Assembly: GCA_051294905.1 (NCBI GenBank)
Contig: CM119371.1
Span: forward strand, 30,072,001-30,136,000
Reading direction: 5' to 3'
DNA length: 64,000 nucleotides
Origin: Botryllus schlosseri
Taxonomy: Eukaryota
Within the stretch, counting starts at the first letter, position 1. The number at the start of each line of letters is the position of its first letter. Positions 1-63,762 of the stretch are shown here, piece by piece. Both the position numbers and the translations under genes were made by a program. Under the pieces are notes generated by a model that was not told the origin of the DNA, ran no database searches, and saw nothing but the letters and a program-made list of their open reading frames with translations.

Positions 1-37
1 CAGGCAAGGGGCTTTTCATTTGCGTGGTATGCTGTAG
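1..37 (+). CDS. 3' end of a CUB-domain exon, left paralogue (cut by window start)
   Basis: Reads QARGFSFAWYAV(G)|gtaagt, matching QKVGFSFVWCAV(G)|gtaagt of the exon ending at 62882 on the minus strand; the following intron sequence is also homologous. Confidence 0.85.
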   Translation, partial: RQGAFHLRGML

Positions 38-769
38 GTAAGTTTGCATTTATTGAGCGATCCATCTCTTCACTATGGCAGAGCTGTCAAACATTCTGCC
101 CACGGGCCGGGGCCGGCCCGCAAAGCAATGCTGAGTAAATGACAATCTGCTCGGATACGCAAATAATGTATTCTACAATGCAATCGTTCGAGCTAATCCG
201 AGATAGGTAGCTGCTTCCTATATCATCATGAGAGGAACTTATACTTTACCCTGAGCTAATGTACGGTGACTTGAAACCAGAGGTGGTCACTGACGAAGTA
301 CTTCTAGTCTTTATAAATACGGGCCTGCCCTGTATTAGGAGTGGTTGCGATAATGTAAAATTTTCTGAAAGGTGGCACTGGGGTAATTAAAGGTATACTG
401 TAGAATCATAGCTCTATAGCAAGGGTTCATAAAAATTTTATGATCGCGACCCCAAGGTTTGAACATGTTTCGCGACCGCACTTCCCAAATTGTCGCGCTG
501 ATCCCTAAAGAAATAATCAGACCCTTCACCCAAACCTACTAAAGGTGTATGTGTGAACTTTGAAGCAATTATGCAGTCGTCTAACGCCGTCTTTAAACTA
601 AGAGACTCAATCAAGACTATAACAGCATATATATGTATTTTCAATTGATTTCTTTATATATCTAATCCAAGTTTAGTATAGCCTACTGCTACGAGAAATA
701 TTGCGCCACACGAATTAGAGATAACGATTTATAGTTATTCAGCCGCGCCGAGCGTGTGTGTAGGCCTAC

Positions 770-1740
770 TTGGGATGGTGTGAACATGAGGTTCAAGTTC
801 GCGTTCTGTGTGTAAACCTTGGAAATTTAGAGGTTCACGTTCACAAACGAACCTCATTAGGTTCTGCACTGTGAACCTTTTTCATATATTACAATTTTCA
901 CTTAATCATAACATCCTTGGTTAATATTTATTGCATTTCAACTGCGGGCCACTCTATGCATGGCGCTGGCAGCATAAAAATCAACACTACACAAGCATGC
1001 ACCTTAGCAATTTCAATAATTTGACCTGTTTCGGTACAAAAGTTTGCTCAAAATATCCAGCTTTCTGTTTGTGAATATTTAGTGACTCTTTGCTGCGAGC
1101 TTGACCCGCAATCTCAAAACTTCAAGAGCGAAATACACTACATGTAGGTCGGCGAATGATGCTTTTTCAACCAATCAATGAAATTGATATCGTTGTCTAA
1201 CATAAAAAATCTAGCAACATACGGGGTCGATCTCGATTTCATATGTCTATTGTATCATACAAACCAAATCTGTACGATTGGGGTGTTGGCTACTGCTGTA
1301 TAAATTGCTAATGGGGTAAAACCAGTTTTACACTCTGCTCAACATCAACGTAGCAACACTCAGACGCCGAATATATTGCCCGGTCTGGTATCGAGCGTTA
1401 AGGCGTTAGGTTATATTCCCTTGGAAGTCCTCGTCGAAATTGTTGGCAAAGCGACGGAAGACATTGATTTCATTGGATTATTATATCATATGATTGCCCC
1501 ATCTGGCGACGTTTAAAAAGTCACGATGTAGCCTACTTCAGCATTGTGGTATTATGTAGCCCGAGTCGTCGCTAGTTAGCGTGTACATAAATATATATCA
1601 CTTCACTAAAATGTTCGGTTAGAATTAGGAATATGACGTCACGTGACGTCATGAGATTCACGTTCGCGTTCACACAGAGCCTTTTAAAATGGTTCACGTT
1701 CACGCGAACCTGAATCTCTCAGAGGTTCACACCATCCCTA
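770..1740 (+). mobile_element. hAT-type MITE family A, copy 1
   Basis: TIR (T)TGGGATGGTGTGAAC...GTTCACACCATCCCTA with GTTCAC subterminal repeats; colinear with copies at 5432, 6961 and 19908; TSD not readable. Confidence 0.9.
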
Positions 1741-2281
1741 GCTGTGTAAGTACGTATAATACTGTTAGCCCTAGCGGTCACTTTCATTTTTCCGTTTAAT
1801 TGGCAATCTTGTAGTAGTGATAGACTAGGTATGTAATGTTCATCTCCGCGACCCTAGTTTGGGACCCCTTGCTCTATTTTAAAGGTATCATTTGTATCAC
1901 ATGATGCTGTCGAATCTTTATGCTGTTGCAAATATCTATGTCCTGCAATAGATGTAGCATCACAAAAGCCTGCTCTCTGCACCATGCGCATATGTCAGTT
2001 TCACGGTTTTGATGGTCCATGATAGCATATTTATGACTGATTTCCAGAACTGCTTGCTTCCTTGAGTAGTTTTGAAAATGTGACTTCTACTTTCGGTGGT
2101 TTTGGGTCGCTTCCAAAAGCACTACTTTTACTCCTACTCCAGTACAATTCTGAGCCGCCCCTTCTACATGAGTAGCCTTCTTGACTACTTCGGCCACGTC
2201 TGTCTAAAACTCATGTCTTTTCCGTGCGATAAATTTCAATGTTGCCCGTCAGTCGCGACGCATCTCAATTCCATGATGCAG

Positions 2282-2323
2282 ATAACTGGACAGTGCACAA
2301 TATTGATGAAATTATCACTATAG
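2282..2323 (+). CDS. Putative 42-bp phase 1-1 exon, left paralogue
   Basis: ctcaattccatgatgcag|(D)NWTVHNIDEIITI(G)|gtaaga; the acceptor is identical to the one before the TSP1 exon at 58528 (minus). Confidence 0.5.
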   Translation: MTGQCTILMKLSL

Positions 2324-3032
2324 GTAAGAGGGGTTTGAAGGATTCATCCCCATTGATTGATAGCCCTATGAGGGCCAAGACCACCGGTTTCTGGGGTTGA
2401 ATGTGAATATATGAACCGGTTGAATATGATTCATGATAGTAGAGTTGAGTTCTCAAAAACGTGGATTAACCGACCGCGCCAACTCGAATGATTTTCTTCT
2501 TTACGACAATATCCACAGAAGAAACGTGTTGGAGTATGACCAAGCCCCTTGTCGATATATCTTATTTATTGACGTATTCATGGTGTTTGTCGACTACTAT
2601 GGTCGTTTACACCAGGCCGATATTATTCATTATTTTCCGTAACCGCCGACTTATAGCACGGCCCACCTCTTGGCTTTTTGTAAGACACCGTTTACGCGGA
2701 TGAGGTGGCGAGGATATATCTTATTCATTTCCCTCTACTACCTGACGTACTACGCAACCAATCAATGTTTCTGACGCGTGTACGTTATTATCAAATCAAT
2801 GTTTCAGATATATTAGTTCCATGTCGTCAATGACTACGTATTCAAATAACAACATTGAATTGTGACTTGGTATATCCTAATTTTATATAGTGCGGTCCGC
2901 CAATGGATTCAAATGTCGAATGCGGCCCGCGAGCTAAAACGTTCGCCCACCCCTGGGCTACGCTATCGTCATTAATCTCCGAAAAGAGACGTTGGCGAAA
3001 ATGTTGCGAAATAAGAATCACTGTTTTTTTAG

Positions 3033-3110
3033 ATGATTCGTACCAGCACAATGACACTTATACCAATCGGACTAGATGGTTTAATTCAGGCAACACGATC
3101 GACGACGAAG
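3033..3110 (+). CDS. Putative 78-bp phase 1-1 exon
   Basis: ttttttag|(D)DSYQHNDTYTNRTRWFNSGNTIDDE(G)|gtaaca; open frame with good splice sites. Confidence 0.6.
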
Positions 3111-3156
3111 GTAACATGCTTCATCTCTGACTATAAACGAAACTGGTGCATTCTAG

Positions 3157-3237
3157 CGATTAAGCCTACCATCGCGTTGGGTACCGATAAAGCAGTCGCC
3201 ACTTCTGGTGTGATATTAGACCTTCACAACTATTCCA
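3157..3237 (+). CDS. Putative 81-bp phase 1-1 exon after a 46-bp intron
   Basis: ttctag|(A)IKPTIALGTDKAVATSGVILDLHNYS|gtaagt; phase compatible with 3033-3110. Confidence 0.5.
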
Positions 3238-3484
3238 GTAAGTGTAAATGCGCCGACTGCACGGATCCTTATGTTTATATCCCAAAGCCATCGATTTCTC
3301 GTCGCGCTGCTGACCGAATATATCGACGGTATCCAATATTTTCCATTAATACGGGGGTCACTATGTTCCGTGTACAAGATGATGTGTTACGCCATCGTGT
3401 ACGAAATGTTCAAACCGCACAGATGTCCTAAACGCAGGTCCATTTAGTTTCGATTCTCAACTAATTGTTTCGGACTATGTGTCG

Positions 3485-5102
3485 CAGAGTTGGATCAATT
3501 GTAATTTGTAATTGAGCTTAATGTAATTATTCCATTTTTTCATGTAATTGTAATTGCAGCATTTCTATTTTGTGTGATTGTAATATAATTTGATAAAAAT
3601 TTTGCTCAATTACAATTTCAATTACATTGTCATGGAAACCTGACAATCCCAACTTAAAATGATCAATTAATCAATCAATCATCTATTCATCACACCAGTG
3701 AAAGTCCGGTACGGGCCAGGATGCTGACGGGGGCCTTAATGCCTTACACAGTCGCCACCTGTAATAATTAGCCTTTACATCGGTGTTCTATGCGTGCTGC
3801 GTTGTAACTTAATAGTTCAGTCATGCTTAACTGTTTCCCATACTTCAGTAGCAACAGAAACTTTAATGAATTACAATATAGGCTAAATCGGTGATTCTCA
3901 AACTTGGGGCGTACCCCCTTGGGCGGCGTGAAAGCATCTGAAGCGGGTTGCGAAGCTCCAGTGAACTGAAATTTTTCCGCGCTTGGCGCGATTCACTTCC
4001 ATTTCATAGCTATTGCTCTGTGTATAGTCCAAATTTCGTATTAGAGAATTCTCTCGTCAACAGTCATAAACCTTCCATACCATCAAACTATATGTAAGGA
4101 TTGCTAACATTCTGGTTTCATTGTGTGATATGACGATAAGGGGGGCACGAGATATTTCACTGTCATAAAGAAGGGCGTTAGAGAACCAGTGGGCTAAACT
4201 AAATCTTAGTATTTCAAATATGGATTAACAGCAAATACAATTTTCCGAAACCTGTGCTGAACCATTTCCTACACCACGTTCCTATTTTTTCTTTTTAAAT
4301 CTCTGACCAGTACCGAGGCTTGATGCAACAATTGCAAAAAGAAATTTAAGTTTCCAATCAAGGCTTCATCAAACTCGATCACGCATTTGTAGAAATGTTA
4401 TCCCAATTTTGCATTCAATATTGGCTAAATTTACTGGGGCCAGAACCTTTTCGCACCCTAATGTTCATCAAATGCAGTCTAACAGTTTCCGAGCAAGTGA
4501 GAATGTAAATGCGAACCATAAGGGTGTATTTTGTAGTTATCAGGAGATTCTTTCCTTTGCATTTACTTTAATTGTACGCACCTTATCGGTATCATTCTTA
4601 TCGATGACGCCTTACCAATTACATTTAATTATCCTCACTCAGCGCTGAGTAGCCTAATCGTTTGATTACATTTCATTAACTGTCCTGTAGCCTATTCGCT
4701 GTTAGTCGCTCAAACTTTTGGTTGTTAACAGTCATTTGAAGCATTTTCCTGTGCTTGTAGTTTTCAGTACTCATGATTAGGAATAGTTTGAATACGTTGG
4801 AGTTTTTTTTTAATTAAAGGGTAATCTACGTATCATGAATGAAACATGAATAGCTTGAGATCGTTGCTAATTACGTCGCTACGTTTATCATAGAACACCT
4901 CTTTACCGAAACAATTACATGTTTATCAGTAATTTTAATTGTAAATATAATTGTAATTGTTACATGTTTAACAGTAATTGTAATTGTAATTTGATATTTT
5001 TAGCATTGAGTAATTGTAATTGTAATGTAATTGTAACAGGCAAGGAAGTATTTGTAATAGTAATTGTAATTGAACTGAAATATAGTAATCGATCCAACTC
5101 TG
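3485..5102. mobile_element. hAT-type non-autonomous element with GTAATT subterminal arrays
   Basis: TIR CAGAGTTGGATC/GATCCAACTCTG; perfect 8-bp TSD ATGTGTCG. Confidence 0.92.
3889..4191 (+). mobile_element. Charlie-like hAT MITE nested in 3485-5102
   Basis: Degenerate CAGTGGTTCTCAA-type ends; TSD GGCTAAAT/GGCTAAAC; similar to 9430-9736. Confidence 0.8.
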
Positions 5103-5431
5103 ATGTGTCGTGGCGTGTTCAAATCTGGAAAAGCGGCGCATTTTTCAATTTCTTCGCTGCCACGAGCCTCTAACTCCTGCCGGCAGACTTTTATGATCAA
5201 TACCTCCTTGCGCATCAAAATGACATTGGTAATTAGTAGCAGAGGTGATCACTGATCAGTTACGAAGTGTTTCCGTTCTTTCAGATTAATCAAAAGGTTA
5301 TGTATTAACTGCATCTGCTTCTACGTGAAACATTTTTATATTCAAATCTGCTTATCTTTTTAAATTCGGATCTTAAAAGCAGAAAGTACTTTTAACATGA
5401 GTTTGGACCAATTTATTAAGGCTGTCGTTAT

Positions 5432-6328
5432 TGGGGATGATGTGAACGTGAGTTTCACGTTCGCGTTCTGTGTGTGAAACTCGGAAATTTAGAGGTTCAC
5501 GTTCACAAACGAGCCTTGGTGGGTTCTGCACCGTGAACCTTTTTCATATATTACAATTTTCACGTCATTATATCATCTTTGGTTGAAATTTATTGCACTT
5601 CAACTGCGGACCACTCTATGCATGGCGCTGGCAGCATAAAAAATCAACACTAAACGAGCGTGCACCTTGACAATATCAAAAATTTTACCTGCTTTGTTAC
5701 AAAAGTTTGCTCGAAATATCCTGCTTTCTGTCCGTGAATATGTAGTGACTCTCTGCTATGAGCTTCACTCGAAATCGCACAACATCGAGAACGAAATACG
5801 CTACATGTAGGTAGTCAGTGAATGATGCTTATTCAACCAATCAATGAAGTTGATATCGTTGTCTGATGTAAAAAATCTATGAAGCATACGGGATCCATCT
5901 GAAATTCATATGTTTATTGTATCATAAAAACCAAATCCATTTATCGGGATGTTGGCTACTGCTGTATAATTTGCTAATGGGGTAAAATCCCTTTTACTCT
6001 CTGCTCAACATCAACGTAGCAAACCGCAGACGCCGAATACATTGTCCGATTTGGCCTAGACCGTTAAGGCCTAAGCTTATATTCCCTTGCAAGTCCACAT
6101 TTGATACATTTGGCGACTTTTAAAAATTCAGTATGCACTGCAGCATTGTGTCATTATGTGGCCCCAGTCGTCGATAGGTGTCGTGTACATTAATATGTAT
6201 CAAATCATTGAAATGTACGGTTAGAATTAGCAATATGAAGTCACGTCACTTTCGCGTTCACACAGAACCTTTCAAAAAGGTTCGCGTTCACACGAACCTG
6301 AACCTATCAGAGGTTCACACCGTCCCTA
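5432..6328 (+). mobile_element. hAT-type MITE family A, copy 2
   Basis: Family A TIRs; perfect 8-bp TSD GTCGTTAT. Confidence 0.93.
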
Positions 6329-6960
6329 GTCGTTATTATAAATACCACGTGAAGCAGACACTGCATCGCAGTATTTAAATATAGTCAATATATATTTGAA
6401 GATTGCACCTATTTGTAGTGTCATTATTTGCATTGCGTTCGCAAGGAAGATGCCTATTGCGAATTCGAACGCTGTCACCTCTGCTGAAAGCATGCTACCC
6501 GTCGTCCGAATTTGAAACAGTTTACTTGAGTATACTTACCAGACCTTTCATTTCCTCCTTCTACGTGGTGCAGTTTTACGTGCCTAAGTAATCGCAACTT
6601 CTACTTCTACTTCAGGGCGTTACTTGTAGGCTACTTCCATTGGTGTAGAAAAGCTGACTATAGCGCTACCACCACTGGTTAAAAATTTCTTCGTCATCCT
6701 TTTCGGATGATTCAGTTTGTTGTATTGACTCATACCTTCATAATAGGTCATAAAATTAATTTTGTTTTGTTCGACGTACATGTTGCCGAATGTAAAAAGT
6801 AGGTGCAGCATTATCCCACTTGTTTTCCGAAATAAAGTTTTACGTGTAGGCCTATATTAGGGTTGTCTGGCGTATAATTTCCAGGGTAGAAAACATGATC
6901 AGCTAGTTTGCGGATAACAGAAAGCAAAATTATATAATCCAATACAGATACGGTTGAGCG

Positions 6961-7807
6961 TAGGGATGATGTGAACGTGAGGATCACGTTCGCGTTCTGC
7001 GCGTGAACCTCGGAAATGTAGAAGTTCACGTTCACAAACGGACCTTGGTAAGCTGGCCTCGGCATAAAAAGCCAACACTAAACGAGCATGCACCTTGACA
7101 ATCTCAAAAATGTTACCTGCTTTGTTTCGAAAGTTTGCTCGAAATATTCAGCTTTCCGGTTGTGAATATTTGGTGACTCTCTGCTGTGAGCTTGGACCGG
7201 AATAATCAACATCAAGAGCGAAATACGCTACAGCAAATGAGGCTTATTCAACCAATCAATGAAATTGATATCTTTGTCTGATGTAAATAAATGTAGCAAG
7301 CGTACTGAGTCCATCTGGATTTCATATGTCTATTGTATCATAAAAACCAAATCCGTACGATCAGGCTACTGCTGTGTAACTTGTTAATGGGGTAAACCCG
7401 TCTGCACTCTGTTCAATATCAACGTAGCAACACTCAGACCCCGCATATATTGTCCGGTCTGGTCTAGCCCGTTAAGGCGTAAGCTTATATTCCCTTGCAA
7501 GTCCTCGTCGAAATTGTGGGCAAAGCGACGGAAAATATTGATTTATCGGATTATTATATCATTTGATTGCTCCGGTTGACACATTTGGCGATATTTAAAA
7601 AGTCAGTATGTACTTCAGCATTGTGGCATTATGTGGCCCGAGTCGTCGCTAGGTATTGTGTACATTATTATATATCACTTCACTGAAATGTCGGGGTGGA
7701 ATTAGGAATATGACGTCACGAGGTTCACGTTTGCGTTTACACAGAACCTTTCAAAAAGGTTCGCATTCACATGAACCTGCACCTTTCAGAGGTTCGCACC
7801 ATCCCTA
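6961..7807 (+). mobile_element. hAT-type MITE family A, copy 3 (internal deletion)
   Basis: TAGGGATGATGTGAAC...GCACCATCCCTA; colinear with the other copies but lacks about 110 bp. Confidence 0.9.
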
Positions 7808-8626
7808 GACTAGAGCCCACTGCAAAGATGAGATCAAGTTGTGTGTGCGTGTGTGTGTGTGTACAATGTACATGTAGGCTACGTACATTGATCTCGAACC
7901 CGAACGTTTGAAGTTGTACCCCATAACCCAGATTGCATGTTTATGTGATGTTGTTGATGTGTAATCTGACTCTGGTAGGTTTCGTTGCATATCATCTGCG
8001 TATAGTAGGACTATATCTTCCGACCGACCTGACTCATTCACGTATATTACTTCGACGTAACTCGCGACAGCCTGTCCTGTAGAAACAGTGACCACAACAC
8101 GACGATGTTTGTTGTAACTGTTCCAACGAAATGTAGTCTATATTGAACCAGATGTGAAATAGATTCTCTAGCAATTATATATATAAATATGAGTTTGATG
8201 ACATAAATTCAATGCGATAGAGGGTATAACGGCGGGGCGGTTGTTATCAATATTTTCGTGCGCAGTATGGGCCTACGAAGTCTTATCGGTTGTTTTATGG
8301 GAACGTGTTATATTCTGTGGATAATGCGTGGCGATTTGTCTATACGTTTACTGGATTACGATATGGCAAAATGAATATATATTGAGGTATATACCCCATG
8401 GTTGTAATGATAGCCTGGTTTGAGCTCGACAAATAGTGCGATTTTTACGTCGCGCTGACTGGTCATCAAGCACTATATATTTACGCCGGAAATACTCCCA
8501 AAATCAAACAGAAAACTGGCCCTAAGTTCGTGAACTGCGCTTCCCTCTTTAATATAGTTCCGTTAACATCGAGTAACGCACTGTGCAAATTTCTGAAAAA
8601 GGTTAAGAATCACTGCTTTTTCATAG

Positions 8627-8692
8627 ACCGTTCATACAGTGAATCATCTGGCTATCATACTTTGGAACTCGAAACCACAGATTACGGTCCTG
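8627..8692 (+). CDS. Putative 66-bp phase 1-1 exon
   Basis: ctttttcatag|(D)RSYSESSGYHTLELETTDYGP(G)|gtaagt; strong splice sites. Confidence 0.65.
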
Positions 8693-8869
8693 GTAAGTTG
8701 TTTTATCTTTACGCTGAAGTTGTTCCAGTGCTCCGAGAGTAGAGTCCATGTTTTAGTATCACGTGTACCCATAGTCTACATACCTATTTCAGCATCGAAA
8801 TGATTACGGGACATTGCATTTGCCATTACCCAGTACACATGAGCTTTGACGTCAGCGTATAACAATCAT

Positions 8870-9784
8870 TACGGTTGCATTTAGAAAAAAATTCAAACAT
8901 GTTTTAAACAGTGCCTTTGTTTAAAACATGTTTTCATTGTGTTATTTAGCAATGCCGTCACGAATTTTCAATTCATTTTTATATGGCCCCTTAAGAATTG
9001 CAATTGAAAATACATGGTCAATATAGCTTCTTTGGTGAAAAAGGCTTCCGACCCGTCTTAAACTGACCAAAACTATTTTGACCAGGACTACTTCCACATG
9101 CAGCATCAGCAATCATCACCATCAGAATACCCATTCGGTTCCAATGATATATAAATATATGCTTTAGCTATTGAACCGACGGCGACAGCGATTCCAACGC
9201 TTCCAACCATTGTATATCGTATACGTCGACTACATTTACTTCTTGGCTTGGTTGTGGTGCAAACGACCAGCGCCGTGATTTTATTATTGAATCATAACAT
9301 CTAGGACAAGACGTCAGCAGGCTCATGCTACATTTTTTTCCGAAAATATTTACACAGTTATGGCATAATTATTAATACAGTTCTGTAAATAAAATTGGTT
9401 TGAAACACCTTTTAAAACTGGTTTTAAACCAGTGGTTCCCAACCTGCGGGGCGCGCCCCCCCCTTGGGGGGGGGGGCGTGAAAGCTCAGAAGGGGGGCCC
9501 GAATTGCGCTTCGCGCAATTTACCTGCAATTCACGCGTGTTTCTCTCTCTATATATATACACCGAATTTCATATTTTTTAATTCTCTCATCAACAGTTAT
9601 AACCTTCTATGCCATCAAAAAATCTGTTGGAGTTGGTAGCATCCAGGTTGGATTTTGTGATATGACGATAAGGGGCGCGCGAAACTTTTCACTATCATAA
9701 AGGGGGGCGTGTCTAAAAAAAGGTTGGGAACCACTGTTTTAAGCAAAGTGTTTTAAAGCAATTCTTGTTTTAGATGCAACCCTG
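8870..9784. mobile_element. MITE family D (AGGGTTGCATTTAAAAC ends)
   Basis: Ends ACGGTTGCATTTAG...TTTAGATGCAACCCTG; internal similarity to 34573-35096 and 38690-43130. Confidence 0.75.
9430..9736 (+). mobile_element. Charlie-like hAT MITE nested in family D copy
   Basis: Perfect 16-bp TIR CAGTGGTTCCCAACCT; TSD TTTTAAAC/TTTTAAGC. Confidence 0.92.
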
Positions 9785-9856
9785 ATTACAGCTTCATAAA
9801 CCGACCAGCTTCATAAACCGATGTTACGAACCCCGGAGCTGTAGCCTACTTTGTAG

Positions 9857-10096
9857 GAAAGGCAGAATGTTGATAGGGATCAAGTCCGTTGGCACCAGAA
9901 TCATGCGCCGACGGCAATAATACTATAATTGTTGAAAATGCAACAATGAGCCGCTTATCCCCTCTTATCGATCTGCAGCGCCACGGCCGTAATTTGATAT
10001 CAAAAGTCACAGTAGATTATAAATGGGGTAACCTATCGCATGTTTGGCTAGGACGAACTCAACAAGGGTGGACAGAAGTTACAGCATCAGGAGAAA
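9857..10096 (+). pseudogene. Putative 240-bp phase 1-1 exon with two in-frame stops (weakly discoidin/F5-8C-like)
   Basis: tttgtag|(G)KAEC**GSSPLAPESCADG...IDLQ...VWLGRTQQGWTEVTASGE|gtaaga; TGA TAG at 9871-9876. Confidence 0.5.
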
Positions 10097-10214
10097 GTAA
10101 GATGTTTTGAATTCTATGTTCAAGTTCAAATGCCGATTTTATGAACTCCTGACCTGTAATATCTTGGTTTGAAGACATGACTCAACCCGAGTTATCGAAT
10201 TCATTTTATATCCA

Positions 10215-10605
10215 GAATTTCATAGCACCAGCAGTACACCCCTAAACGGCTTTTGACAAAACTAAACTAATGCGCACGTTAATAAATCGTCTGGTAGTTA
10301 CACAACGTGATACCAGAAACGTATATTACCCACGGAACATAGAGAAAACCTGGGAACAATTCTTTTACTACCCAAAATACCATGATATCGTCTATATCTC
10401 GGATCGAAAATTATTCATCGCTTATAACTATATCCAATATACGTGTGATTGAGACTATTGCAAAGTTCACAGAAACCTGTGAAGAGTAAAAATTACTTCG
10501 CTATAACATATATATGTAATTGTTTAATGTATATATATAGATATATATATTCCTACGACAAATCCCCGGGATATCCACGGGATGGCGATATATGGAACAA
10601 GCCAA
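10215..10605 (+). pseudogene. Degenerate coding segments with hemopexin-like YPR motifs
   Basis: YYPRNIEKTW and SPGYPRDGDIW; in-frame stops; the YPRDGDI segment matches YPLDSDI near 53345-53370 (minus) with synonymous changes. Confidence 0.45.
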
Positions 10606-10652
10606 GTGAATCGTATCTCATCAAATTCTATCCATATTCTTTGAATGAGCAG

Positions 10653-40097: not shown

Positions 40098-40120
40098 GTA
40101 ACTATATGCCAGTCGCCCAT

Positions 40121-53187: not shown

Positions 53188-53289
53188 CTCTCCGATTCCG
53201 TTGAACACACAGCAAGTCGTCATAGCATGATTTGTGGAGCAGTATGGGGTCGTGAAGCAGACAATTAGATACCGATTCCTCGAGCCAAT
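53188..53289 (-). CDS. 102-bp phase 1-1 Cys-containing exon, right paralogue
   Basis: atgcag|(D)WLEESVSNCLLHDPILLHKSCYDDLLCVQRNRR(G)|gtaagc; homologous to 10653-10760. Confidence 0.8.
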
Positions 53290-53959
53290 CTGCATATTCC
53301 AAAAACATTATTAAAAATGACATATGGTTCATTTAGTCAGTCCTCTATGTCGCTATCCAGTGGGTATATACTTAGTATAGGCCAATGCATAGATTATATC
53401 AAGGGTTCAAATCTTTTTTTCGGCCCTGACCCATTTTCCGATTTGAAAATTTTCTGCAGCCCACCGTTTAGCCTAGATTTATAGTATTGATTCCCAATGC
53501 GAGGTACGCCGGCGCCAATATGCCTATATCTCTAAGACCTGCACAATCATATTATAATCTATACCTCTAGCCACAGGGGAACCAACTTTTGTGCTATTCC
53601 CGGTCGTACTTCGATTACTTACGTAGCCTACGGCCTCATTCTTGGGTACAGTCGTAATGAACTAAATGGATGTCAAATGCCCATGTTAAACTGTTCACGG
53701 CCGTTTCCAATGATCTCCAGACTAAACAACTTTTTCATGTTGCTTACTCTATCAACATTCAATAATCTAGGCAAAGGGTAATCGTCAGATTATATTTTCA
53801 TCTGAAGAAGACACACGCAATAAATAATGCGATGCAATGAACAGATAGGATAAAGCCGAATGAAAAGTAGCGGTTGCAGTTTTTGGCTCTTAAACTGGCA
53901 TCCACCTCGGCCAACAGCCCGATGTCACAGTTTCTCTTTCGATGTTATTCTGTATTCTG

Positions 53960-54146
53960 TGACTCTTCATTTTTGCTATTTCCATTCTGTGTGAGTGTGC
54001 TCATTCATCGGGTCTTTTCCTGGGCTTTTTTGTCGCCGTAAGAACAGGGACGCTTGCGAAGAGGAGCCCAGAGTAACCTCCGACGCGGAGTCTAACCCGA
54101 ACGCGTGGGCGGTAGACACTCAGCGTCACCACTACGGTATCTCCCC
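53960..54146 (-). mobile_element. tRNA-derived SINE, second family
   Basis: Minus strand ATACCGTAGTGGT...GGGTTAGACTCC head followed by a GC-rich body. Confidence 0.5.
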
Positions 54147-54935
54147 ATACGCAGAGAAATCGCCAGAGGTCATACTATGAATAGTTACTGGTGTGGGTCA
54201 TGGTCGCGCCAATGCGAAATTATTTTCATATTCAAGAATGAATTTCGTCATTAGTATTAGTCGTTTAACATGTTATTATCGAATATTTATCTTTTCTCAG
54301 CCCAAGTGATCAGATTTAGTTGATGATGGAAGTGTTTTCGAAAATTTCGGGCAAGTTGTAAATGATTATACATCTTCGGGATGGCTAATTGTTATCAGTA
54401 ACTTTGTTACGTGCTGTTATTTCTTGTCCTACCGTCATGATTGTCGGTATAATGGAAAGTCATTGGAATCGCTCAAACGTACCACAAACTAATTTCTTTC
54501 GTGAGGAGCAAACGATTCAGAGCTGGCATTTTCATATGGTGTGCATCATTTACCTCTGCTGTTCGCATCTGCACTGTGGGGCTCAGATTGCAAAGAGCGC
54601 TACTATATTAAAATCTTTGAATCGACATATTTGTGCATTGACTCATTACCTCCATTTCTACTCGAGTCATTGCGCAAGACTCAACGAAGTCGTTTAGATG
54701 GAGACAATTTGGACCAGAAACTGCCTTTTCTGTTTGAATGGACCTCTTATGCGTATAGGTATAGGCATAACTTTCAATACAATATCCATTTATTAACTCG
54801 AAGACTTTTCGGGTGCCTCTTTTCCAAAAAGGCACAGTATGACGCAACAATCAAAATCACAGACCATGAAAATCGCATTGTATCAATGGCAACAATAACA
54901 AACTAAGAAGTATACGGACATACGGTACTATAGTA

Positions 54936-56186
54936 CAGTGCTCTTCAACCTTTTTCGACGTGGTACACCCTTTTAACGTTTGCTCAAAACTCGTACACCC
55001 CTGTTCATTAGGGGTCTTCAAAAATGACTTTTTTTTCTCAAATCGTACTGGCTACTTGATAAAATTATTAGGTTACCTAACTTTAAGCCTACACACCAAA
55101 TTTGGTTCAATTCCAACCAGTAGCCGCATTGCTACGGGAGAAGAAAGCTTCTATTTATTATATATAAAAATAAATAACGAAAAATTTGAAATTTTTCTGT
55201 TCACCCCATGAAAAAACGATGTTCTTCAAATTTGGTTGAATTCCAACCAGTAGAAGCGGAGTTATTGCCGTCAAAGAATTTGGATTTGAATAAAATAGTA
55301 TTTGGTCACAGAGTCTATTCGCAGCCAGTTAGGCCGCCCGCCACGCAAATTGGAATTTATTTCGTGTCAGTCCAAAAACAGCATAGCATTACGAACGATA
55401 ATCAACCTAAATGTAAGAGTATTGGGGAGAGAGTAGGTGAAGCTACTGCTGCAGAAGCGGTAATTCAGATCAGCGATGATAGCAGGCGCACCAGCCTACT
55501 GCGTATCAGGCTGCCCCACACCACACACAGTCGATAGTAGCACATGGGCTGCAAGAGATGTCAGTAACCTCGGATCGTATGCCGCTATACACAGTCTATT
55601 GTCGCTAATTTGCATCACTAGTAACAAAATACTAAATTGCAAATGTATGGCGAAATATTGGACATAAAATCGGCATTTTAAAACAAAAGGGTTTCGATTT
55701 CAACATGAAAGCTGTTTCGACCCTGGCAGGCTACGTCACTTCATTTATGTGCATTGCGGTATTTATTAACGTCGGGTAGGAAGTACCGATTCAAGAAGTC
55801 TGAGCTATCGCGGCGGTTCCCTCAAAAATCACTAAAAGACAAATGACTAGCTGAACAGTGAACACATGTTTGTTAACTGCATACTTTCCAACACCAAACG
55901 GAACCATTGATCTATTGCCGACTGCTAAATGAATAGGAGAAATATTTGCTTATGACATCACAATCAAGCGGTGTACAGTATTACACTTGAGATAACATCG
56001 TACCATATTGCTCATTAACCTGTGCGTCAACGTGTACTGACCCACAAACCTGCCTTTGTGATAGCTAGCCATCGGCTCATTGTAATTCGGATCTGGTACA
56101 CCCCTGTACACCCCATCCGAGTGGTACACCCTTTGCAAATTCTGGTACACCCTAGGGTGTACGACAACCCCGGTTGACGAGCACTG
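54936..56186. mobile_element. hAT-type non-autonomous element inserted in the Penelope 3' UTR
   Basis: TIR CAGTGCTCTTCAACC/GGTTGACGAGCACTG; perfect TSD CTATAGTA; empty site in the other pseudo-LTR near 57750. Confidence 0.95.
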
Positions 56187-56242
56187 CTATAGTAGCAGCA
56201 CAAATTTGTAAGTAAACAATTACACGCACTGAACAACATGCA

Positions 56243-57321
56243 CTAATGAGAAATTTGTAGGTTATAGAGGAAATCTTTCTGTCTGCATAAAATAGGTTTG
56301 CTCAACTGAATAATAGTAGACTCCAACACTTTTAAATGAAACACAGACCTACCACGCGCAATGACAGTGAACATATTGTCATCATAGTGCTGTGCACAGG
56401 CAAGGTTTTCGCTCAGATGCTGACCGATTGACGAAGCATATGCTTGGTAATCATCATAGCAGTCTGTTTTTCCAGCCAATTTGCACTGACGTGCGAGCTC
56501 CGTGCGATCATTTGCGCATGTTTTTGACCGAATCAATTTTGGGATATGCTGCTTAATACGCTCAAACAATCTTTGAGATGTACGTCCTACATACCTACTA
56601 TCACAGTGGCACTTGTATTGGTAAACAACATTACTTGCATCAAAGGCAGGAAGTACATCTTTTCGAGAGTTGGGTAACAAGGGTTTCGTCGTGTACACTA
56701 CATGCGTGTTAACGCTGTAATAGCAACGGTGAACAGCCGATTTAATTAGCTAGACACATTACCTAGCCAAGGTAGGTGTAAAAATGCCGGGCATTTTTCT
56801 GGGCCATATATTGGAGCTGTATCCGATTTTTTCAATACCCTAGAGATGGAGCATTTTAATATGTGGTCCGGATAGCCATTTTTGGAGAGAATCAAGTGGA
56901 TATCATCCAATTCGCGTGACAGTTTTTCCGGTGAGCAGAGGCGCAAGGCGCGATTAACGAGAGATGAAATGAGGTTTAATTTACGCCGCTTCGGGCAGAA
57001 TGAATCCCAACGAATATAATGACCAGTGAAAGTAGGTTTTCTGTACACCGACGTTAAAAACGTTTGTCCTGATCTCTCTACTAAGACGTCTAAAAAGGGA
57101 AGGGCAGCATCAGTTTCCTTTTCCATGGTAAATTGTAGAGCTGGATGGAGACAATTCAATTTTTCGAAGAAATTATTACACTCTCGCTCATTTTGAAAGG
57201 CAACAAAGGTGTCATCGACATATCTAAAATAGAGGAGAGGTTTTGCGACGTTTTCAAACAATTTCTTTTCATGGTATCCCACGAATATATCGGCCAGACT
57301 AGGTCCCAACGGTGAACCCAT
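56243..57321 (-). pseudogene. Penelope-like reverse transcriptase and GIY-YIG endonuclease, truncated, frameshift near 56746
   Basis: ORFs 56746-57393 and 56243-56698 carry RT motifs (YFRYVDD, LPFLDV, VYRKPT) and GIY-YIG motifs. Confidence 0.93.
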
Positions 57322-57896
57322 CACAAGTGCCACTGTGATAGTAGGTATGTAGGACGTACATCTCAAAGATTGTTTGAGCGTATTAAGCAGCATATCCCAA
57401 AATTGATTCGGTCAAAAACATGCGCAAATGATCGCACGGAGCTCGCACGTCAGTGCAAATTGGCTGAAAAAACAGACTGCTATGATGATTACCAAGCATA
57501 TGCTTCGTCAATCGGTAAGCATCTGAGCGAAAACCTTGCCTGTGCACAGCACTATGATGACAATATGTTCACTGTCATTGCGCGTGGTAGGTCTGTGTTT
57601 CATTTAAAAGTGTTGGAGTCTACTATTATTCAGTTGAGCAAACCTATTTTATGCAGACAGAAAGATTTCCTCTATAACCTACAAATTTCTCATTAGTGCG
57701 TGTTGTTCAGTGCGTGTAATTGTTTACTTACAAATTTGTGCTGCTACTATAGTACCGTATGTCCGTATACTTCTTAGTTTGTTATTGTTGCCATTGATAC
57801 AATGCGAATTTCATGGTCTGTGATTTTGATTGTTGCGTCATACTGTGCCTTTTTGGTTTTGCTTTTAAATCTGTTTAAATCCCTTCAGTGTGCCGA

Positions 57897-57935
57897 TAAC
57901 TCTTGAAAAGAGGCACCCGAAAAGTCTACGAGTTA
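57897..57935 (+). ncRNA. Minimal hammerhead ribozyme-like motif (U3-A8 variant), probably inactivated
   Basis: TAACTC-TTGAAAA-GAGGCACCC-GAAA-AGTCT-AC-GAGTTA; stem I is 6 bp; the sister copy at 54794-54823 has TC at the cleavage position. Confidence 0.65.
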
Positions 57936-58366
57936 ATAAATATTATTCTACAATGGATATTGTATTGAAAGCTATATTCAAGTTCTGTACCACGAACCAG
58001 CTATTTAAGTATAGGCATAAGTGGTCAATAAAGATATCGTTGGCAGTCAAGTAGAAGTAGGAATAACGACGTAGATTCACACTCAATTACAAGTTGAAGA
58101 AGCTATTTCTAAGTAAATAAAAGCGAAAGTATTTTAGGTGTAGTTTCGACTAAAAACTGAAATCTGTTAAGTAGAAGTAGCTAAAATCATAGCGACTTGG
58201 GAAAGTACAGCAAGTAGTGAAAACTTACTATAGTACTTTGAAAAAGTATAAGTACTTCTATACTGACCATCTCTGGTTTAGAGTAGGACAGGGAATTGTA
58301 TTAGGAATTCGAGGGATTCGTTTAACCCAAACTGATATACTGATATATACGAGTTGCCCAACTTAC

Positions 58367-58528
58367 CGCACTGTCCGACGTCACATACTTTTGACTGGAC
58401 GCTACCGACATTGTTCGGTTCTGGACATATGTGGTAATTCGAAGGACCGCAGGTCCTGTTTCTGGAGCATATACCCTGGCCACATGTGGCAGAACATTCC
58501 GAATACTTGCTACATTGGGACTATGAAC
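58367..58528 (-). pseudogene. Thrombospondin type-1 repeat exon with in-frame TAG
   Basis: atgcag|(G)S*SQCSKYSECSATCGQGICSRNRTC...VQSKVCDVGQC(G)|gtaagt; 162 bp, phase 1-1; stop at 58521-58523 at a conserved Trp position. Confidence 0.88.
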
Positions 58529-59046
58529 CTGCATCATGGAATTGAGCAGAGGTACTCACCGTAGTTATCGTTGCTACTCAGGTAGATGAAGAAGCCACGC
58601 CGTACATTGCGATTGAATTAGTAAAATAGCAATTTTATCTATTATAGATTCGTTAAAACTACGTCAACGTTCAAAAACCTTCATGATTGTATGTTTTTCA
58701 TACCAAAATCATACGTGAAATTAGAATGGGTCTTGATTCGTGATAATCTTGCTACTTCATACTTGCCGACTTAAATTGTTGCGAGAACCGCACACCTACA
58801 AAGGAATCGCGAGCTAGTCACAGGTTACCGACCCTGCTCTTGGTATTTCATTCATTTCCTGCGGAAATTTACATTTCGGTATATGTAACGTTAGGTCATA
58901 GGTTGGTCTTCATCAAATGAAAATATATTCCGCATCTGCAGTAGATCTGTCGAGATTTCATCGATGCTCTCAGATATAATCCCCATTTACAAAGATTGGA
59001 TGGCGGTCAATATGCTATGATCACGTATACGCGTTACTGAACTCAC

Positions 59047-59217
59047 CGCATGATGGCTTGTTACATTCTTCTCTCTGAACGACATCAACATTGGTCGAAT
59101 TCAAACATTCAGAACGAGGCGAAGGATTTGAGCGATCGTCAGCATCAAATCGCCGTCTTCTGATCCGATGACTGTCACCGCACGTGGCTGAACATTCAGA
59201 CCAAAGCCCCCACGGAA
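59047..59217 (-). CDS. Thrombospondin type-1 repeat exon
   Basis: gatacag|xPWGLWSECSATCGDSHRIRRRRF...QREECNKPSC(G)|gtgagt; 171 bp, phase 1-1. Confidence 0.9.
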
Positions 59218-60228
59218 CTGTATCATAGAATGGAGATATTTCTCGGATGACGGGCAATTTTTCAACTCATTACACGGAGCTGACTTGACTTTTACGCAGA
59301 TCTGGTCAAAGTAGTCTATATGTAGATACTAAAGGAGAAGTAGAAGTAGTGCTTGATGAAACACCTCAAAATGACTTCGAGTAGAAGTGGAATTCTTCGT
59401 CTTTTGAAACTACTCAAGTGAGTATGTGGATTTGAAGATCGGACATAAATACGATTTAATGGTCCGTCAAAACCTGGCAAACTACATATGCGTATGGCTC
59501 AGAGAGTGGACCATGAACCATACGGTAGGCTTAGCATGATCAGCAAAATATGGTAGTTGTAAAATTATAAGCATTTTCTGGGCAATTTTTCACTCTGATG
59601 ACCTTTTCATATGGGCGACTATGCAGTGTGAAACTGCTCGCATGAACTATACGCAACCGCTGCTTAAATTTTACTGGCCGACTTCCGTGCCAAACGCGAC
59701 GAAAATTCGGAACTATTCCAATCTTGGTCTTTCTTCCTCTCTCACATTGGAAGTAAACAATAATTCTTCTTGACAAACTGATCGCTTGCCAGTCAGACCA
59801 GTCAACATATGCTACAAACGTTTTCTTTAAATTCTTGTATTTCTTTTTCAGAGGAATACCTAATTATCATGACAATGATATGTATTAATATAAATCACAG
59901 GAACTTTATTTCTAACATTATATTTTATTTCAAACAATGGAGGTAAAGGAACAACCATAGACCGATTTAATGCTGTTATAAAGCACCACAATATTCCCTC
60001 TTGTCGGCGGTTCATGGCGGTCTAACCTGGCGTAGTTTTATGCCCCATTCATTTTAGTCGGGATACTGCATTTTAGCACTGCGTATGCATGGTGAGAAAC
60101 ACAAATGTTTTAACTGCTACTGCGGACTCTTTCAATTCCGTTCAATACTAATCAATCAAGATTAGGATTTACACTGATAGGATTTTGGATCAGCGCATAA
60201 AATCTGTTAATGAGCCGACGCACTAAAC

Positions 60229-62064
60229 CAGGGGTTCTCAACCTGGGGGGCGCAGGAGGCTCTCAGGGGGGGGGGCAAGAAATTTTTGTCAATTTGGCAA
60301 AGTCTGTATAAATTGTGACTAAACATGTGTTTCACAACCATTCTGATAAGACGATTATTGAAGATTAAACCTAATTCGTATTCTAGAAAGCTTGCCAAAC
60401 TCAAACTCCAGCAGTCGCGCTCAACGGAGTATAGGCTGACTTCAACTTCATTTGAGCAAATTTTTGATATTGTTTGAAGATTTAAAGAAATTCCTACGTG
60501 CAAGTCACTGCGGTCGTTGCCCCGAATACTTCAATGACTTCTTTACCTCTGAATCAAAAGCGCATAAGTACAACACACGCGCGTCCACGTCGTCCAAATA
60601 CCATATGATCGACCGAAAAGATCATCGCTCTATCAAATATGCCGGACCTGATGTGTGGAACAGTATCCCGCCGGCCATCCGGCAGTCGACGAGCATGTCC
60701 ACATTCAAGTCGAAATACAAGCAATTACTACTAAATAGATACAGTCCATCCTCAAGATTACCGGACCACGACTGACCTATCGATCTCGCTTCCCATGACA
60801 TGCCGCCCTATTTCTTGTCGCTTTCTTTTTCTATACTATCTTCTTTACTTTCATTCAGTGTGCATGCCTCCTCTTTACAACGCCTAGGCCAAGGTGGGTG
60901 TCCGATTCCATAGACAACTTCTAGTCGCTTCGACATCTTCCTTTCTTTTCATTGTATCGCATTTTTTGTGGTGTATTGAACTGATAAAATTGCTAATAAA
61001 CCAATGATGATGAAGTCTTTCATTACTTTATAGATTTGGCAGTAGCCTAAACCTCTATGGGCTAGGTATATAGCTGTTGTGGATAGCTGGCGAACTGACC
61101 TGCCTAAGACAGATTTAGATGCAATATAGGTTGCCCGGATTCGCCCTCAATTTAGCAATAAATCAATACAACTTAATTCATTTCCAAAACTTATCAAATT
61201 TAGCATGGCAGGACAGAACGACGCCGTGATCTCTGTAGTCACTACCAGCATCAGGATTAGTCTCAGTGCAACCTACCTTGAAATTAATTGGTGTCCTTTT
61301 CAATGTTTTTTTTGCTATTTTTAAACAAGTTTGGGGAAGTTTGTCAGCAATGTAACAGATTAAACAACTGGAATGCGGATTCAAAATTGCCGTAAGATAT
61401 ACCTTATGTATACTATCAGATCAGGGGTGGACAGACCGTACGGGCGCATGCGGCCGTAGAAGGGAATTTGTGCGGCTGTCGACGCCTAATTCCTTTAGTA
61501 TGTGTTGGCAACCGTAGACATGCGAATTGCAATTACGAATTCAACCCCGAATTTTCGAGAGATTTTATTTAATCTTGAAATTTTCTTCGCGCTCCGCGCA
61601 ATTCAACAAGACTTCATTTTTCGATTTTGATGCAGTAGCGCCCTTCTTAATTGAAGCAGGAATGGGAATCCTCAAGCAATAACAATTCATTCGCGGCTCT
61701 GAAAAATTTTCGCGCGACATTATGCACTCCCAGCGACTATTCATAACATTGCCAATCGCGATTTCGGTGCGTACAATAGGCCGTGGGGAAAAGGAGAATA
61801 GTTCGGAGTTCACCGGGAATGGATATGGACAGTTTACCATAGGTATTTTGCGTCCATATCGTTCATTGCGGCTATGCCCTGGAATGCGGCCTTAGGCGAC
61901 ATAAGTAATCGAAATGCGGCAATGATTAGCAAGACGGTTGCCACCTCTGTATTGTAAGATATTCTCATTTAGACATGACGATAACTTTAAGGGGGATCAG
62001 GGGGGCGCAATTTTTTTGACCATCGCCAAGGGGGGCGCGTGTCAAAAAAGTTTGAGAACCACTG
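60229..62064. mobile_element. Charlie-like hAT MITE expanded by nested insertions
   Basis: CAGGGGTTCTCAA/TTGAGAACCACTG; perfect TSD CACTAAAC; contains a LINE fragment and MITE 61422-61949. Confidence 0.88.
60505..61012 (+). mobile_element. CR1/L2-group LINE 3' end (ORF2 C-terminus and 3' UTR)
   Basis: HKYNTR...SIKYAGPDVWNSIPPAIRQSTSMSTFKSKYKQLLL, then UTR, AATAAA and (ATG)n tail. Confidence 0.88.
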
Positions 62065-62279
62065 CACTAAACCAATCAATTAAAGATCGGGAGATTAAAG
62101 AACCGCAACTAACATACTTTATAAGTTCACATTTGATGAATGGAATTGACTAAATTGCTATGGGAGTTCGTTGCCCCCAATGAGAAAGAAGATATAGCAG
62201 TGTCACCAGAGCGGATGTAACCTGTCAACATATGTTTAACATTGGCGTCTTCGTCTCTGTGAGTAACAACATTTTAGTC

Positions 62280-62545
62280 CAGCGTTCCTCAACCGCCGGA
62301 CCGTGGCGATTTTCCCGTCGGTCCTCCAGATACATTAGAATTTTAAATCCCAATTCGAAAACGCAAAAAGTCCGTCACTTGTTCAATAATCAGAGAAATA
62401 AAATATTAAATTTTTGTATTTGAAGAGGAACATATTTGTAGTGTGGAACGTAATTTTAGTGTTATTTGCGTGATTAAATTGGCGGCTGAATTTTAGATCT
62501 TGAAGTTTCGCTGGCCAGCGAAGTCAAAAAGGTTGAGAACAACGG
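62280..62545. mobile_element. Charlie-like hAT MITE
   Basis: CAGCGTTCCTCAACC/GGTTGAGAACAACGG; TSD TTTTAGTC/TTTTGGTC. Confidence 0.8.
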
Positions 62546-62881
62546 TTTTGGTCAATTATTCCTCAAAACCCTGAACTTGGAGTAATTTTTTTTGCCGTCC
62601 CGGAATTTGACATTGATGTCACGAACTTGTTACTAATAAACGACGGAAGGTTATAACGTGACATATCAACGATCAACGTTTTATGCATTTGCTCCTTGAG
62701 AGATACCTTACGTGGAAGTATTTTTTAAATATCTCAATTTCTTTTTATAAAAATTTGTAGGATAATACAATCACCTTTTTTCTCGGCATTGCTTCGCGGG
62801 TTGGACCAGACCCGCGGGCAGTATGTTTGGCATCCCCCTCATATATTGAAGGAATGGCTTTCTCAATAAATTTACACTTAC

Positions 62882-63002
62882 CCACAGCACACCACACAAA
62901 TGAAAAGCCCACTTTCTGTACATTACGATCGGTGATGAAATCGACAGTCAACGAGTTGCTTTCAGTTGTAAAATTTTCAGGAGGTGTATCACCGCAGTGA
63001 GG
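62882..63002 (-). CDS. CUB domain exon 3
   Basis: ttttag|PHCGDTPPENFTTESNSLTVDFITDRNVQKVGFSFVWCAV(G)|gtaagt. Confidence 0.92.
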
Positions 63003-63057
63003 CTAAAATAGCTTGAATTACTGGAAATTTATGTGAAGTATTTTACCGGCATCCTAC

Positions 63058-63153
63058 CGAATATGCGTCGCCGAATGCAAGTGAATCACGATCACAGTTC
63101 CCGTACGGGTTGTCTTCGACGTTGAAGGTGTCGTTGAAAACGATCGATATAAC
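63058..63153 (-). CDS. CUB domain exon 2
   Basis: atgcag|VISIVFNDTFNVEDNPYGNCDRDSLAFGDAYS|gtagga; phase 0-0; a 55-bp intron follows. Confidence 0.9.
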
Positions 63154-63640
63154 CTGCATGAGAGAAAGATGCAACTTCTTGCGTTGGGATGCAGTGATGA
63201 GCTTCCTGTCCAAGTGACGTATGACTGAGCTATGCTTGCAAATATATATGCTATGCAAATATTACAAGGAATTAGTAAAGTGAAAGGGATACCATAAAAC
63301 TCGAAAGAAAACAAAATTCAGCTATGATCTCAAAAATGTTAACATTGCTATAACAAATAAACCATAGCTCTGTCGTCATTTAAAATCACTTCAACATGGA
63401 GTCAAATTGTTATAATTATTCCAATCCAAAGTAATAGCGTGATAATAACATTACGATTTCAAACCAAAGTGTCCTCACTAATGTGTAGCGCTAGCAATTC
63501 AGCTAAACTGTATCGATATTATAGCCTTGCGACCAAATTCCAGCCTCGACCTAATTTTGTCCGTGGATTCTTGTATACTCTGCGAAAAATCATCTAGCAA
63601 TATACTTGATAGAGCTCCTGGTAATTCTATTGTTGCTTAC

Positions 63641-63762
63641 CATCCCCTCAGGTACTGTTATAAACCAGGAATGACACGCATTTGAATGGTAGGTCTTGGG
63701 ATAGTTCGGTGATGCAATCGTACCAGACGTTTCGTTGCTGATGACTGTGGAATTACAGGGTC
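63641..63762 (-). CDS. CUB domain exon 1
   Basis: ttttacttcag|xPCNSTVISNETSGTIASPNYPKTYHSNACHSWFITVPEGM|gtaagc; typical SG.I.SPNYP..Y and C.W.I motifs. Confidence 0.93.

What the first reader, a model, noticed from the sequence alone, without database searches (positions are those of the whole stretch)
1..63762. The whole window is a decayed mirror image: two convergent paralogues of one modular extracellular gene
Seen: ordered inverted homology pairs 1-110/62800-62920 (CUB exon and intron), 1974-2281/59218-59500, about 10570/53355, 10653-10760/53188-53289, 19280-19411/47294-47431 and 19.0-24.6 kb/43.1-47.7 kb. Established: CUB and TSP1 domains mark secreted or cell-surface recognition proteins. 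Inference: an old inverted duplication produced a tail-to-tail pair. The ORF track misses this because the exons are 40-240 bp and buried in MITEs.
Basis: partly seen in the sequence, partly recalled or inferred. Interest (0 to 1): 0.75.

Follow-up and report, generated by a model that had tools for sequence, protein, structure and literature searches.

The report
Old inverted duplicate CUB-domain gene pair
An animal gene for an extracellular protein was copied long ago in reverse orientation, and the two facing copies now share their CUB end and last exons but have different middle parts; this is an ordinary kind of duplication of an unstudied gene.

Summary
The inverted duplication is real, but 'whole window' is overstated. 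Twelve inverted segments form one colinear chain (left 9-26,780; right 62,910-42,737), covering 11.9% of the window; the central 16 kb is unpaired. Two filled/empty transposon sites, one per arm, and arm divergence far above allelic divergence exclude chance and a haplotype artefact. The right gene (minus strand) has one CUB and two TSP1 exons; the second TSP1 exon carries a stop but can be skipped in frame. The left gene has no TSP1. Five other phase-1 exons stand there, giving a 249-codon open model rich in N-glycosylation sequons, and an earlier stop removes the hydrophobic tail. Paired exons show dN/dS about 0.4. The inner part of the mirror is younger than the outer, suggesting later gene conversion. 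Three RNA runs gave almost no reads in the two repeat-free exon-bearing bins of the left gene; the right gene was not tested. The shared terminal domain found no credible relative. The scan had no look-alike note. Verdict: an ordinary tail-to-tail duplicate of an orphan extracellular gene, with different middle modules.

The parts
1..26780 (.). Left arm of the inverted duplication (cut by the window edge)
   Evidence: colinear chain
42737..62910 (.). Right arm of the inverted duplication (the gene continues to at least 63,762; its left partner lies outside the window)
26781..42736 (.). Unpaired spacer of about 16 kb, repeat-rich
   Evidence: no mirror partner found
1..37 (+). Left gene: end of the last CUB exon (8 of 12 codons give the same residue as the right copy)
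2282..2323 (+). Left gene candidate exon L2 (phase 1-1); follows an acceptor homologous to the right copy's TSP1 acceptors (18 of 18 nt identical to that of the second TSP1 exon) but is not TSP1
3033..3110 (+). Left gene candidate exon L3 (phase 1-1), no partner in the right arm
3157..3237 (+). Left gene candidate exon L4 (phase 1-1) after a 46-nt GT-AG intron; no partner
8627..8692 (+). Left gene candidate exon L5 (phase 1-1), best splice score of the arm; no partner
9899..10096 (+). Left gene candidate exon L6 (phase 1-1, weak acceptor); no partner, no family found
10653..10760 (+). Left gene exon L7, first half of a six-cysteine terminal domain
19280..19411 (+). Left gene exon L8, second half of the terminal domain
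19461..19468 (+). Left gene last coding bases: stop after two residues; the hydrophobic tail of the right copy is not translated
19907..21212 (.). hAT-type non-autonomous element with 8-bp target duplication CTAAAATC, present in the left arm only (empty site near 46,806-46,813)
44117..45840 (.). Approximately 1.7-kb insertion with inverted ends and a 7-of-8 target duplication, present in the right arm only (empty site near 22,790)
63641..63762 (-). Right gene exon R1, CUB N-terminal part (PF00431, 24 bits)
63058..63153 (-). Right gene exon R2, CUB middle part by position (no Pfam hit alone)
62882..63002 (-). Right gene exon R3, CUB C-terminal part (PF00431, 29.5 bits)
59047..59217 (-). Right gene exon R4, TSP1 (PF00090, 33.7 bits), phase 1-1
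58367..58528 (-). Right gene exon R5, degenerate TSP1 (22.8 bits) with an in-frame stop at its second codon; phase 1-1, so skippable
53188..53289 (-). Right gene exon R6, partner of L7
47294..47431 (-). Right gene exon R7, partner of L8
47205..47245 (-). Right gene last exon: short hydrophobic tail then stop

Best explanation
A segment carrying a spliced gene for an extracellular CUB-domain glycoprotein, plus about 7 kb downstream, was duplicated once in inverted orientation, leaving two tail-to-tail copies with arms 16 kb apart (shown). Transposons then entered each arm independently and erased most intron similarity (shown). The copies diverged by whole-exon changes at phase-1 introns: the left lost its TSP1 exons but kept their splice acceptor, and has five other exons that the right lacks (difference shown). 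Reciprocal loss from an ancestor that had both sets is my preferred direction (inferred, about 50%; gain in the left copy about 35%). The inner part, from the penultimate exon to the spacer, was homogenised later, most simply by gene conversion between the arms (two strata shown; cause inferred). The right product most likely is a surface-tethered binding protein (CUB, TSP1, six-cysteine domain, short hydrophobic tail), and the left a secreted, heavily N-glycosylated variant (inferred). Both were under purifying selection for part of their history; at least the left is silent or very low in the samples read.
For: Colinear chain of 12 anchors; 8 of 8 two-copy cross-arm pairs in order. Reciprocal filled/empty sites with target duplications. 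Same exon borders and phases in paired exons; all 8 left and 7 right modelled introns are GT-AG. Pfam CUB and TSP1 above cut-off on 4 right exons. dN/dS 0.40 over 81 paired codons, p=0.007. Left model open for 249 codons; 10 of 18 Asn in sequons (shuffle p=1e-4), 8 of 13 in the unshared exons (p=0.0012; spacer background 140 of 966). Among the 8 DNA-contig pieces listed, the 2 exon-rich ones differ from the window at 2.9% against 4.7% for the other 6 (p=0.002). Outer non-coding pairs 72.5% against inner 82.7% identical (p=7e-8); synonymous differences 12 of 17 against 6 of 30 sites (p=0.001).
Against: No RNA support: depth 0 in bin 8005-8671 in all three RNA runs, 0 in bin 10006-10672 except 0.07 in one column, and none of the 15 joints shown (of 2,357) matches a modelled intron. 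The dN/dS signal comes from one exon pair: L7/R6 0.12; L8/R7 0.61, p=0.23; CUB tail 1.79 on 12 codons. Without the two exons that have right partners, the excess of exon candidates on the left gene strand is not significant (5 against 2.1 expected, p=0.065), and the splice scoring was hand-made. I chose the L6 acceptor because it keeps the frame, and it is weak. The right copy has a stop in R5. The aligner used for the strata gives 63% identity on shuffled DNA, so absolute values are inflated. The contig-divergence test rests on 8 listed pieces of one DNA run.
Confidence: 0.72

Rival explanations
1. The duplication is real but one or both copies are now pseudogenes. The left copy's early stop and silence, or the right copy's stop in TSP1 exon 2, mark decay, and the sequon and dN/dS signals are left over from earlier function.
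For: Almost no reads in the two repeat-free exon-bearing bins of the left gene in three RNA runs, 4,742 million letters read. Stop and a 2-bp deletion in the left last exon. Stop in R5, and none of the tryptophans expected at the start of a TSP1 repeat (motif recalled).
Against: The left model has no frameshift or internal stop over 9 exons. Skipping R5 leaves 263 open codons. Lower allele divergence in exon-rich contigs points to present-day constraint. Only 3-13% of each run was read, and tissues are unknown.
Confidence: 0.3
2. Two separate events: an old duplication of the gene, then a younger inverted duplication that supplied only the 3' end and downstream 7 kb, so that the left gene is a chimera, possibly with middle exons recruited from a third gene.
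For: Two divergence strata; the left middle exons have no trace in the right arm.
Against: Outer and inner anchors lie on one colinear chain with one orientation. About 4.0 of the 5.1 kb between R5 and R6 is transposon DNA, so deletion from the right copy is equally easy.
Confidence: 0.2
3. The mirror is an illusion made by high-copy repeats, or an assembly artefact joining two alleles.
For: At least 43% of the window (27,296 bases) has another copy inside the window; several anchors are repeats.
Against: Exon-bearing anchors are low-copy in a DNA run. The order is colinear. Contigs from a DNA run differ from the window by 1.7-6.0%, while arms differ by 17-38% by BLAST and have arm-specific insertions.
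Confidence: 0.03

Closest known systems
Linked tail-to-tail (inverted) duplicate genes of animals (PMC3194840, passages and Table 2 seen)
   Same: Multi-exon paralogues on one chromosome, facing 3' to 3', tens of kb apart; 12-21% of linked duplication events in human, mouse, zebrafish and C. elegans are of this orientation.
   Different: Here the copies differ by whole middle exons and show two divergence strata; I did not test how often that happens.
Sea urchin egg bindin receptor EBR1 (PMC13672419, PMC9265791; passages seen)
   Same: CUB followed by TSP1; CUB split over three exons and TSP1 on single exons.
   Different: EBR1 is an ADAMTS-like protein of about 4,000 aa with many tandem CUB-TSP1 repeats. 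The window shows one CUB, two TSP1 and an unrelated terminal domain; no sequence relationship was tested.
Ascidian Tast proteins (PMC11673157, passages seen)
   Same: Extracellular proteins with two or three TSP1 repeats, in tandem gene clusters.
   Different: Tasts are type II membrane astacins, and no CUB is described for them in the passages seen; no astacin domain lies in the window.
Sponge aggregation factor genes (PMC5400394, passages seen), as a model of phase-1 exon shuffling
   Same: Paralogous extracellular genes built of symmetrical phase-1 exons with different module content.
   Different: Different domains; no homology implied.
ADGRB/BAI adhesion receptors (architecture recalled, no call)
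   Same: CUB then TSP1 repeats.
   Different: No GAIN domain or seven-helix region follows; the gene ends about 90 residues after the TSP1 exons.

Membership tests
Inverted segmental duplication with tail-to-tail paralogues | Colinear anti-diagonal of low-copy segments | tested here: met
Inverted segmental duplication with tail-to-tail paralogues | Shared exon borders, intron phases and intron sequence | tested here: met
Inverted segmental duplication with tail-to-tail paralogues | Arms are paralogues, not alleles (divergence above allelic level; arm-specific insertions) | tested here: met
Inverted segmental duplication with tail-to-tail paralogues | Symmetry continues past the window; both 5' ends present | not testable with these tools
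   no genome is held for this window
CUB-domain protein (PF00431) | Profile match above the curated cut-off | tested here: met
   right exons R1 24 and R3 29.5 bits against 21.4; the left copy has only 12 codons in the window and is assigned by homology
TSP1-repeat protein (PF00090), right copy | Profile match above the curated cut-off | tested here: met
   R4 33.7 and R5 22.8 bits against 21.6
TSP1-repeat protein (PF00090), left copy | A TSP1 exon or its remnant | tested here: not met
   no credible DNA or protein match of the R4 or R5 exons in the left arm; no TSP1 hit on the 6 left exons scanned; L2 and the CUB tail were too short to scan
EBR1 / ADAMTS-like egg receptor | Many tandem alternating CUB-TSP1 repeats | tested here: not met
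   one CUB and two TSP1 exons before the terminal exons, within the window
EBR1 / ADAMTS-like egg receptor, or Tast | N-terminal metalloprotease domain | not testable with these tools
   5' ends lie outside the window
ADGRB/BAI receptors | GAIN domain and seven transmembrane helices after the TSP1 repeats (recalled) | tested here: not met
   both models end shortly after the six-cysteine domain
GPI-anchored protein (right copy) | C-terminal hydrophobic signal with a cleavage site, plus a signal peptide | tested here: inconclusive
   mean hydropathy 1.85 over the last 17 residues against 0.55 for the left copy; no predictor available; signal peptide outside the window
Discoidin / F5-8 type C domain (exon L6, resemblance by eye, recalled) | Profile or fold match | tested here: inconclusive
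   no Pfam hit to E 0.5, no related PDB sequence, Atlas hits under 0.9, model pLDDT 43.6

The most novel reading that the evidence does not exclude
Both copies are live, stage- or tissue-restricted recognition proteins (gamete or self/non-self) that share an undescribed six-cysteine terminal domain. After the inversion they split the ancestral modules into a surface-anchored TSP1 form and a secreted, glycan-rich form, while gene conversion kept their 3' ends alike: a receptor and decoy pair made by one inverted duplication.
Probability: 0.1. Interest if true: 0.6.

Novelty: new member of a known kind. Interest (0 to 1): 0.27.

Why it matters
Inverted gene duplicates are common, so the mirror itself is ordinary. 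The modest value is in annotation and evolution. There are two spliced genes that an ORF scan misses, a shared cysteine-rich domain without relatives in the collections searched, and a compact case in which paralogues differ by whole phase-1 exons and by a membrane tail. If both are expressed in gametes or immune cells, the pair would be a candidate recognition system worth a functional test.

Tried and rejected
Whole genome: none held, so flanks and genome-wide copy number could not be searched directly. Rfam: 0 matches. Relatives of the terminal exon pair: 0 of 136 candidates passed; 2 hits among 1.84 billion proteins, both long repetitive proteins matched over 11-14 positions, rejected as chance; 2 PDB hits at E 0.47 and 1.4; no usable Atlas hit. 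TSP1 exon R4: 0 of 2 candidates. Exon L6: 0 of 20 candidates, Atlas under 0.9, 1 PDB hit at E 1.5, low-confidence model not sent to a fold search. All these used single short exons, so the blanks are weak; the spliced domain was not searched. Run search with 2200-10900: no RNA holder listed. An alternative, longer L6 from the strong acceptor at 9,775 has stops in all frames and was dropped. A pair 31716-31834/58286-58169 is two-copy but off the chain and was treated as a dispersed repeat. Papers: five searches listed 1, 4, 3, 3 and 2 papers. In the listings and in the passages of the five papers opened, none described this gene pair; the library lacks most subscription journals, and no supplements were opened. 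Haplotype artefact and repeat illusion were rejected (see rivals). Reads were laid on 1-20,000 only, so the right gene and the anchors beyond 20 kb have no read evidence.
Full report
Setting. The window is 40% G+C animal DNA, rich in repeats: 27,296 of 64,000 bases have another copy inside the window, and most 667-base bins of 1-20,000 have summed DNA-contig depths of 10^4 to over 10^5 against 32-46 for single contigs. No genome is held. An earlier, unchecked scan note calls the genome probably a sea squirt (e1-7786438); I did not test this.

The mirror. Self-comparison gave 47 inverted HSPs at E<=1e-3, of which 14 are two-copy in the window. 8 of these join 1-26.8 kb to 42.7-62.9 kb, and all 8 are in anti-diagonal order. 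With four further segments that fit the chain (two parts of one repeat, a 101-base segment and a multi-copy element) there are 12 anchors, 3,783 bp left and 3,820 bp right, or 11.9% of the window. The centre, 26,781-42,736, has no mirror partner. Two insertions are arm-specific with an empty site opposite: an hAT-type element at 19,907-21,212 with an 8-bp target duplication in the left arm, and about 1.7 kb at 44,117-45,840 in the right arm. These show that the flanks descend from one ancestral position. Contigs of a DNA run differ from the window by 1.7-6.0% (8 listed pieces), the arms by 17-38% by BLAST, so the arms are not two alleles. Anchors beyond 20 kb were not tested for copy number.

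The right gene (minus strand). Three exons make one CUB domain (PF00431 above cut-off on two of them) and two phase 1-1 exons are TSP1 repeats; R4 and R5 resemble each other (64% over 90 bp). R5 has an in-frame stop at its second codon; skipping it leaves 263 open codons. Two further exons encode about 80 residues with six cysteines, and the last exon adds a short hydrophobic tail.

The left gene (plus strand). It starts with the last 12 codons of the CUB domain, shares the two six-cysteine exons (57% and 81% identical protein) and the 48-49-nt last intron, but stops two residues into the last exon, with a 2-bp deletion further on. No TSP1 exon or remnant was found in the left arm. The intron before R4 is paired right up to the acceptor, and the left acceptor is identical over 18 nt to that of R5, but similarity ends at the AG. 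Five phase 1-1 candidate exons follow (156 residues), without partners in the right arm. For them: GT-AG introns throughout and a 249-codon open model; 8 of 13 asparagines in N-x-S/T sequons (shuffle p=0.0012; background 140 of 966); lower divergence of the two exon-rich DNA contigs, 56 of 1,913 against 165 of 3,536 (p=0.002). Against: the excess of such candidates is p=0.065 once the two partnered exons are left out, the L6 acceptor is weak and was chosen to keep the frame, and RNA is lacking. In three RNA runs (4,742 million letters, 3-13% of each run) the two repeat-free bins holding parts of L5, L6 and L7 had depth 0, except 0.07 in one column, and none of the 15 joints shown of 2,357 is a modelled intron. 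The other exon bins are swamped by repeat reads and say nothing.

Selection and age. Over 81 paired codons dN/dS is 0.40 (p=0.007), driven by L7/R6 (0.12); L8/R7 gives 0.61 (p=0.23) and the CUB tail 1.79 on 12 codons. Non-coding pairs outside 10.9/53.1 kb are 72.5% identical (428 of 590 columns), those inside 19.0/47.7 kb 82.7% (1,981 of 2,396; p=7e-8), and synonymous differences agree (12 of 17 against 6 of 30). The aligner gives 63% on shuffled DNA, so only the contrast is reliable. A later conversion tract between the arms is the simplest reading; a second, partial duplication is the rival.

How it most likely works. One inverted duplication, then independent transposon invasion, loss or gain of whole phase-1 exons, and later homogenisation of the inner part. 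The left copy lost TSP1 exons, since it keeps their acceptor. Whether L3-L6 were deleted from the right copy, where about 4.0 of the 5.1 kb between R5 and R6 is transposon DNA, or gained on the left cannot be told here. CUB and TSP1 are extracellular binding modules (established knowledge), so the right product is probably a surface-tethered ligand-binding protein and the left a secreted glycoprotein; anchoring, ligand and tissue are inferred only.

Comparison. Tail-to-tail pairs are 12-21% of linked duplication events in human, mouse, zebrafish and C. elegans (PMC3194840, Table 2 and passages). Module differences between paralogues built of phase-1 exons are described for sponge aggregation factors (PMC5400394, passages). 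CUB-TSP1 order with the same exon layout occurs in sea urchin EBR1, but as many tandem repeats in an ADAMTS-like protein (PMC13672419, PMC9265791, passages); ascidian Tasts have astacin and TSP1 (PMC11673157, passages). Membership in none of these is shown. Single-exon searches for the terminal domain and for L6 found no credible relatives, which is weak evidence. The scan's notes hold no look-alike and one other set of orphan CUB genes in this genome, also without RNA (e1-7857203, untested).

Verdict. Observation partly confirmed, interpretation partly supported. A new member of a known kind; interest 0.27.

Noticed in passing
window 54767-57975 (-): Penelope-like retroelement fragment: reverse-transcriptase ORF 57411-56749 (weak RVT_1 hit, below cut-off) and a downstream ORF 56749-56246 in another frame (GIY-YIG-like by recall, no Pfam hit); its tail is repeated in inverted form at 57318-57975 at 99% identity, and a 1.25-kb element (54936-56186) sits inside one copy.
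   Followed up: partly
window 40121-42572: DNA transposon with 532-bp inverted ends (98% identical), an 8-bp target duplication TCGCCCAT (hAT-like by that length) and a transposase-like reading frame in pieces; no clear Pfam hit.
   Followed up: partly
window 767-1741, 5428-6329, 6960-7809, 19907-21212: Four copies, 79-85% alike, of one high-copy non-autonomous element within 21 kb, all in the left arm; reads from it are common in the RNA runs.
   Followed up: partly
window 2574-2714 (older copies 19545-19698 and 47154-47020): Very high-copy short repeat (DNA depth about 10^6) with a simple-sequence tail and a constant continuation in reads, frequent in RNA: probably a SINE-like retroposon; no Rfam match.
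   Followed up: partly
window 27122-27780 (+) and about 24430-24700: Two more decayed pieces related to the Penelope-like element at 56-57 kb.
   Followed up: no
window 48750-49049 (+): 100-codon acidic ORF inside a 3.1-kb stretch that separates two anchors in the right arm only; resembles transposon-associated small proteins by recall; no Pfam hit.
   Followed up: no
window 3012-3043 and 8604-8637: The acceptors of candidate exons L3 and L5 resemble each other (79% over 34 nt, E 0.03), a weak hint of internal exon duplication.
   Followed up: no
window 8579-9057: A contig of the DNA run has about 320 letters where the window has 479 including exon L5; the piece was not listed, so an allele lacking a repeat or lacking L5 cannot be told apart.
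   Followed up: no
window 19042 and 19399: The DNA run's contigs carry the letter of the right arm at both listed positions, so some left-right differences may be private to the window's haplotype.
   Followed up: partly
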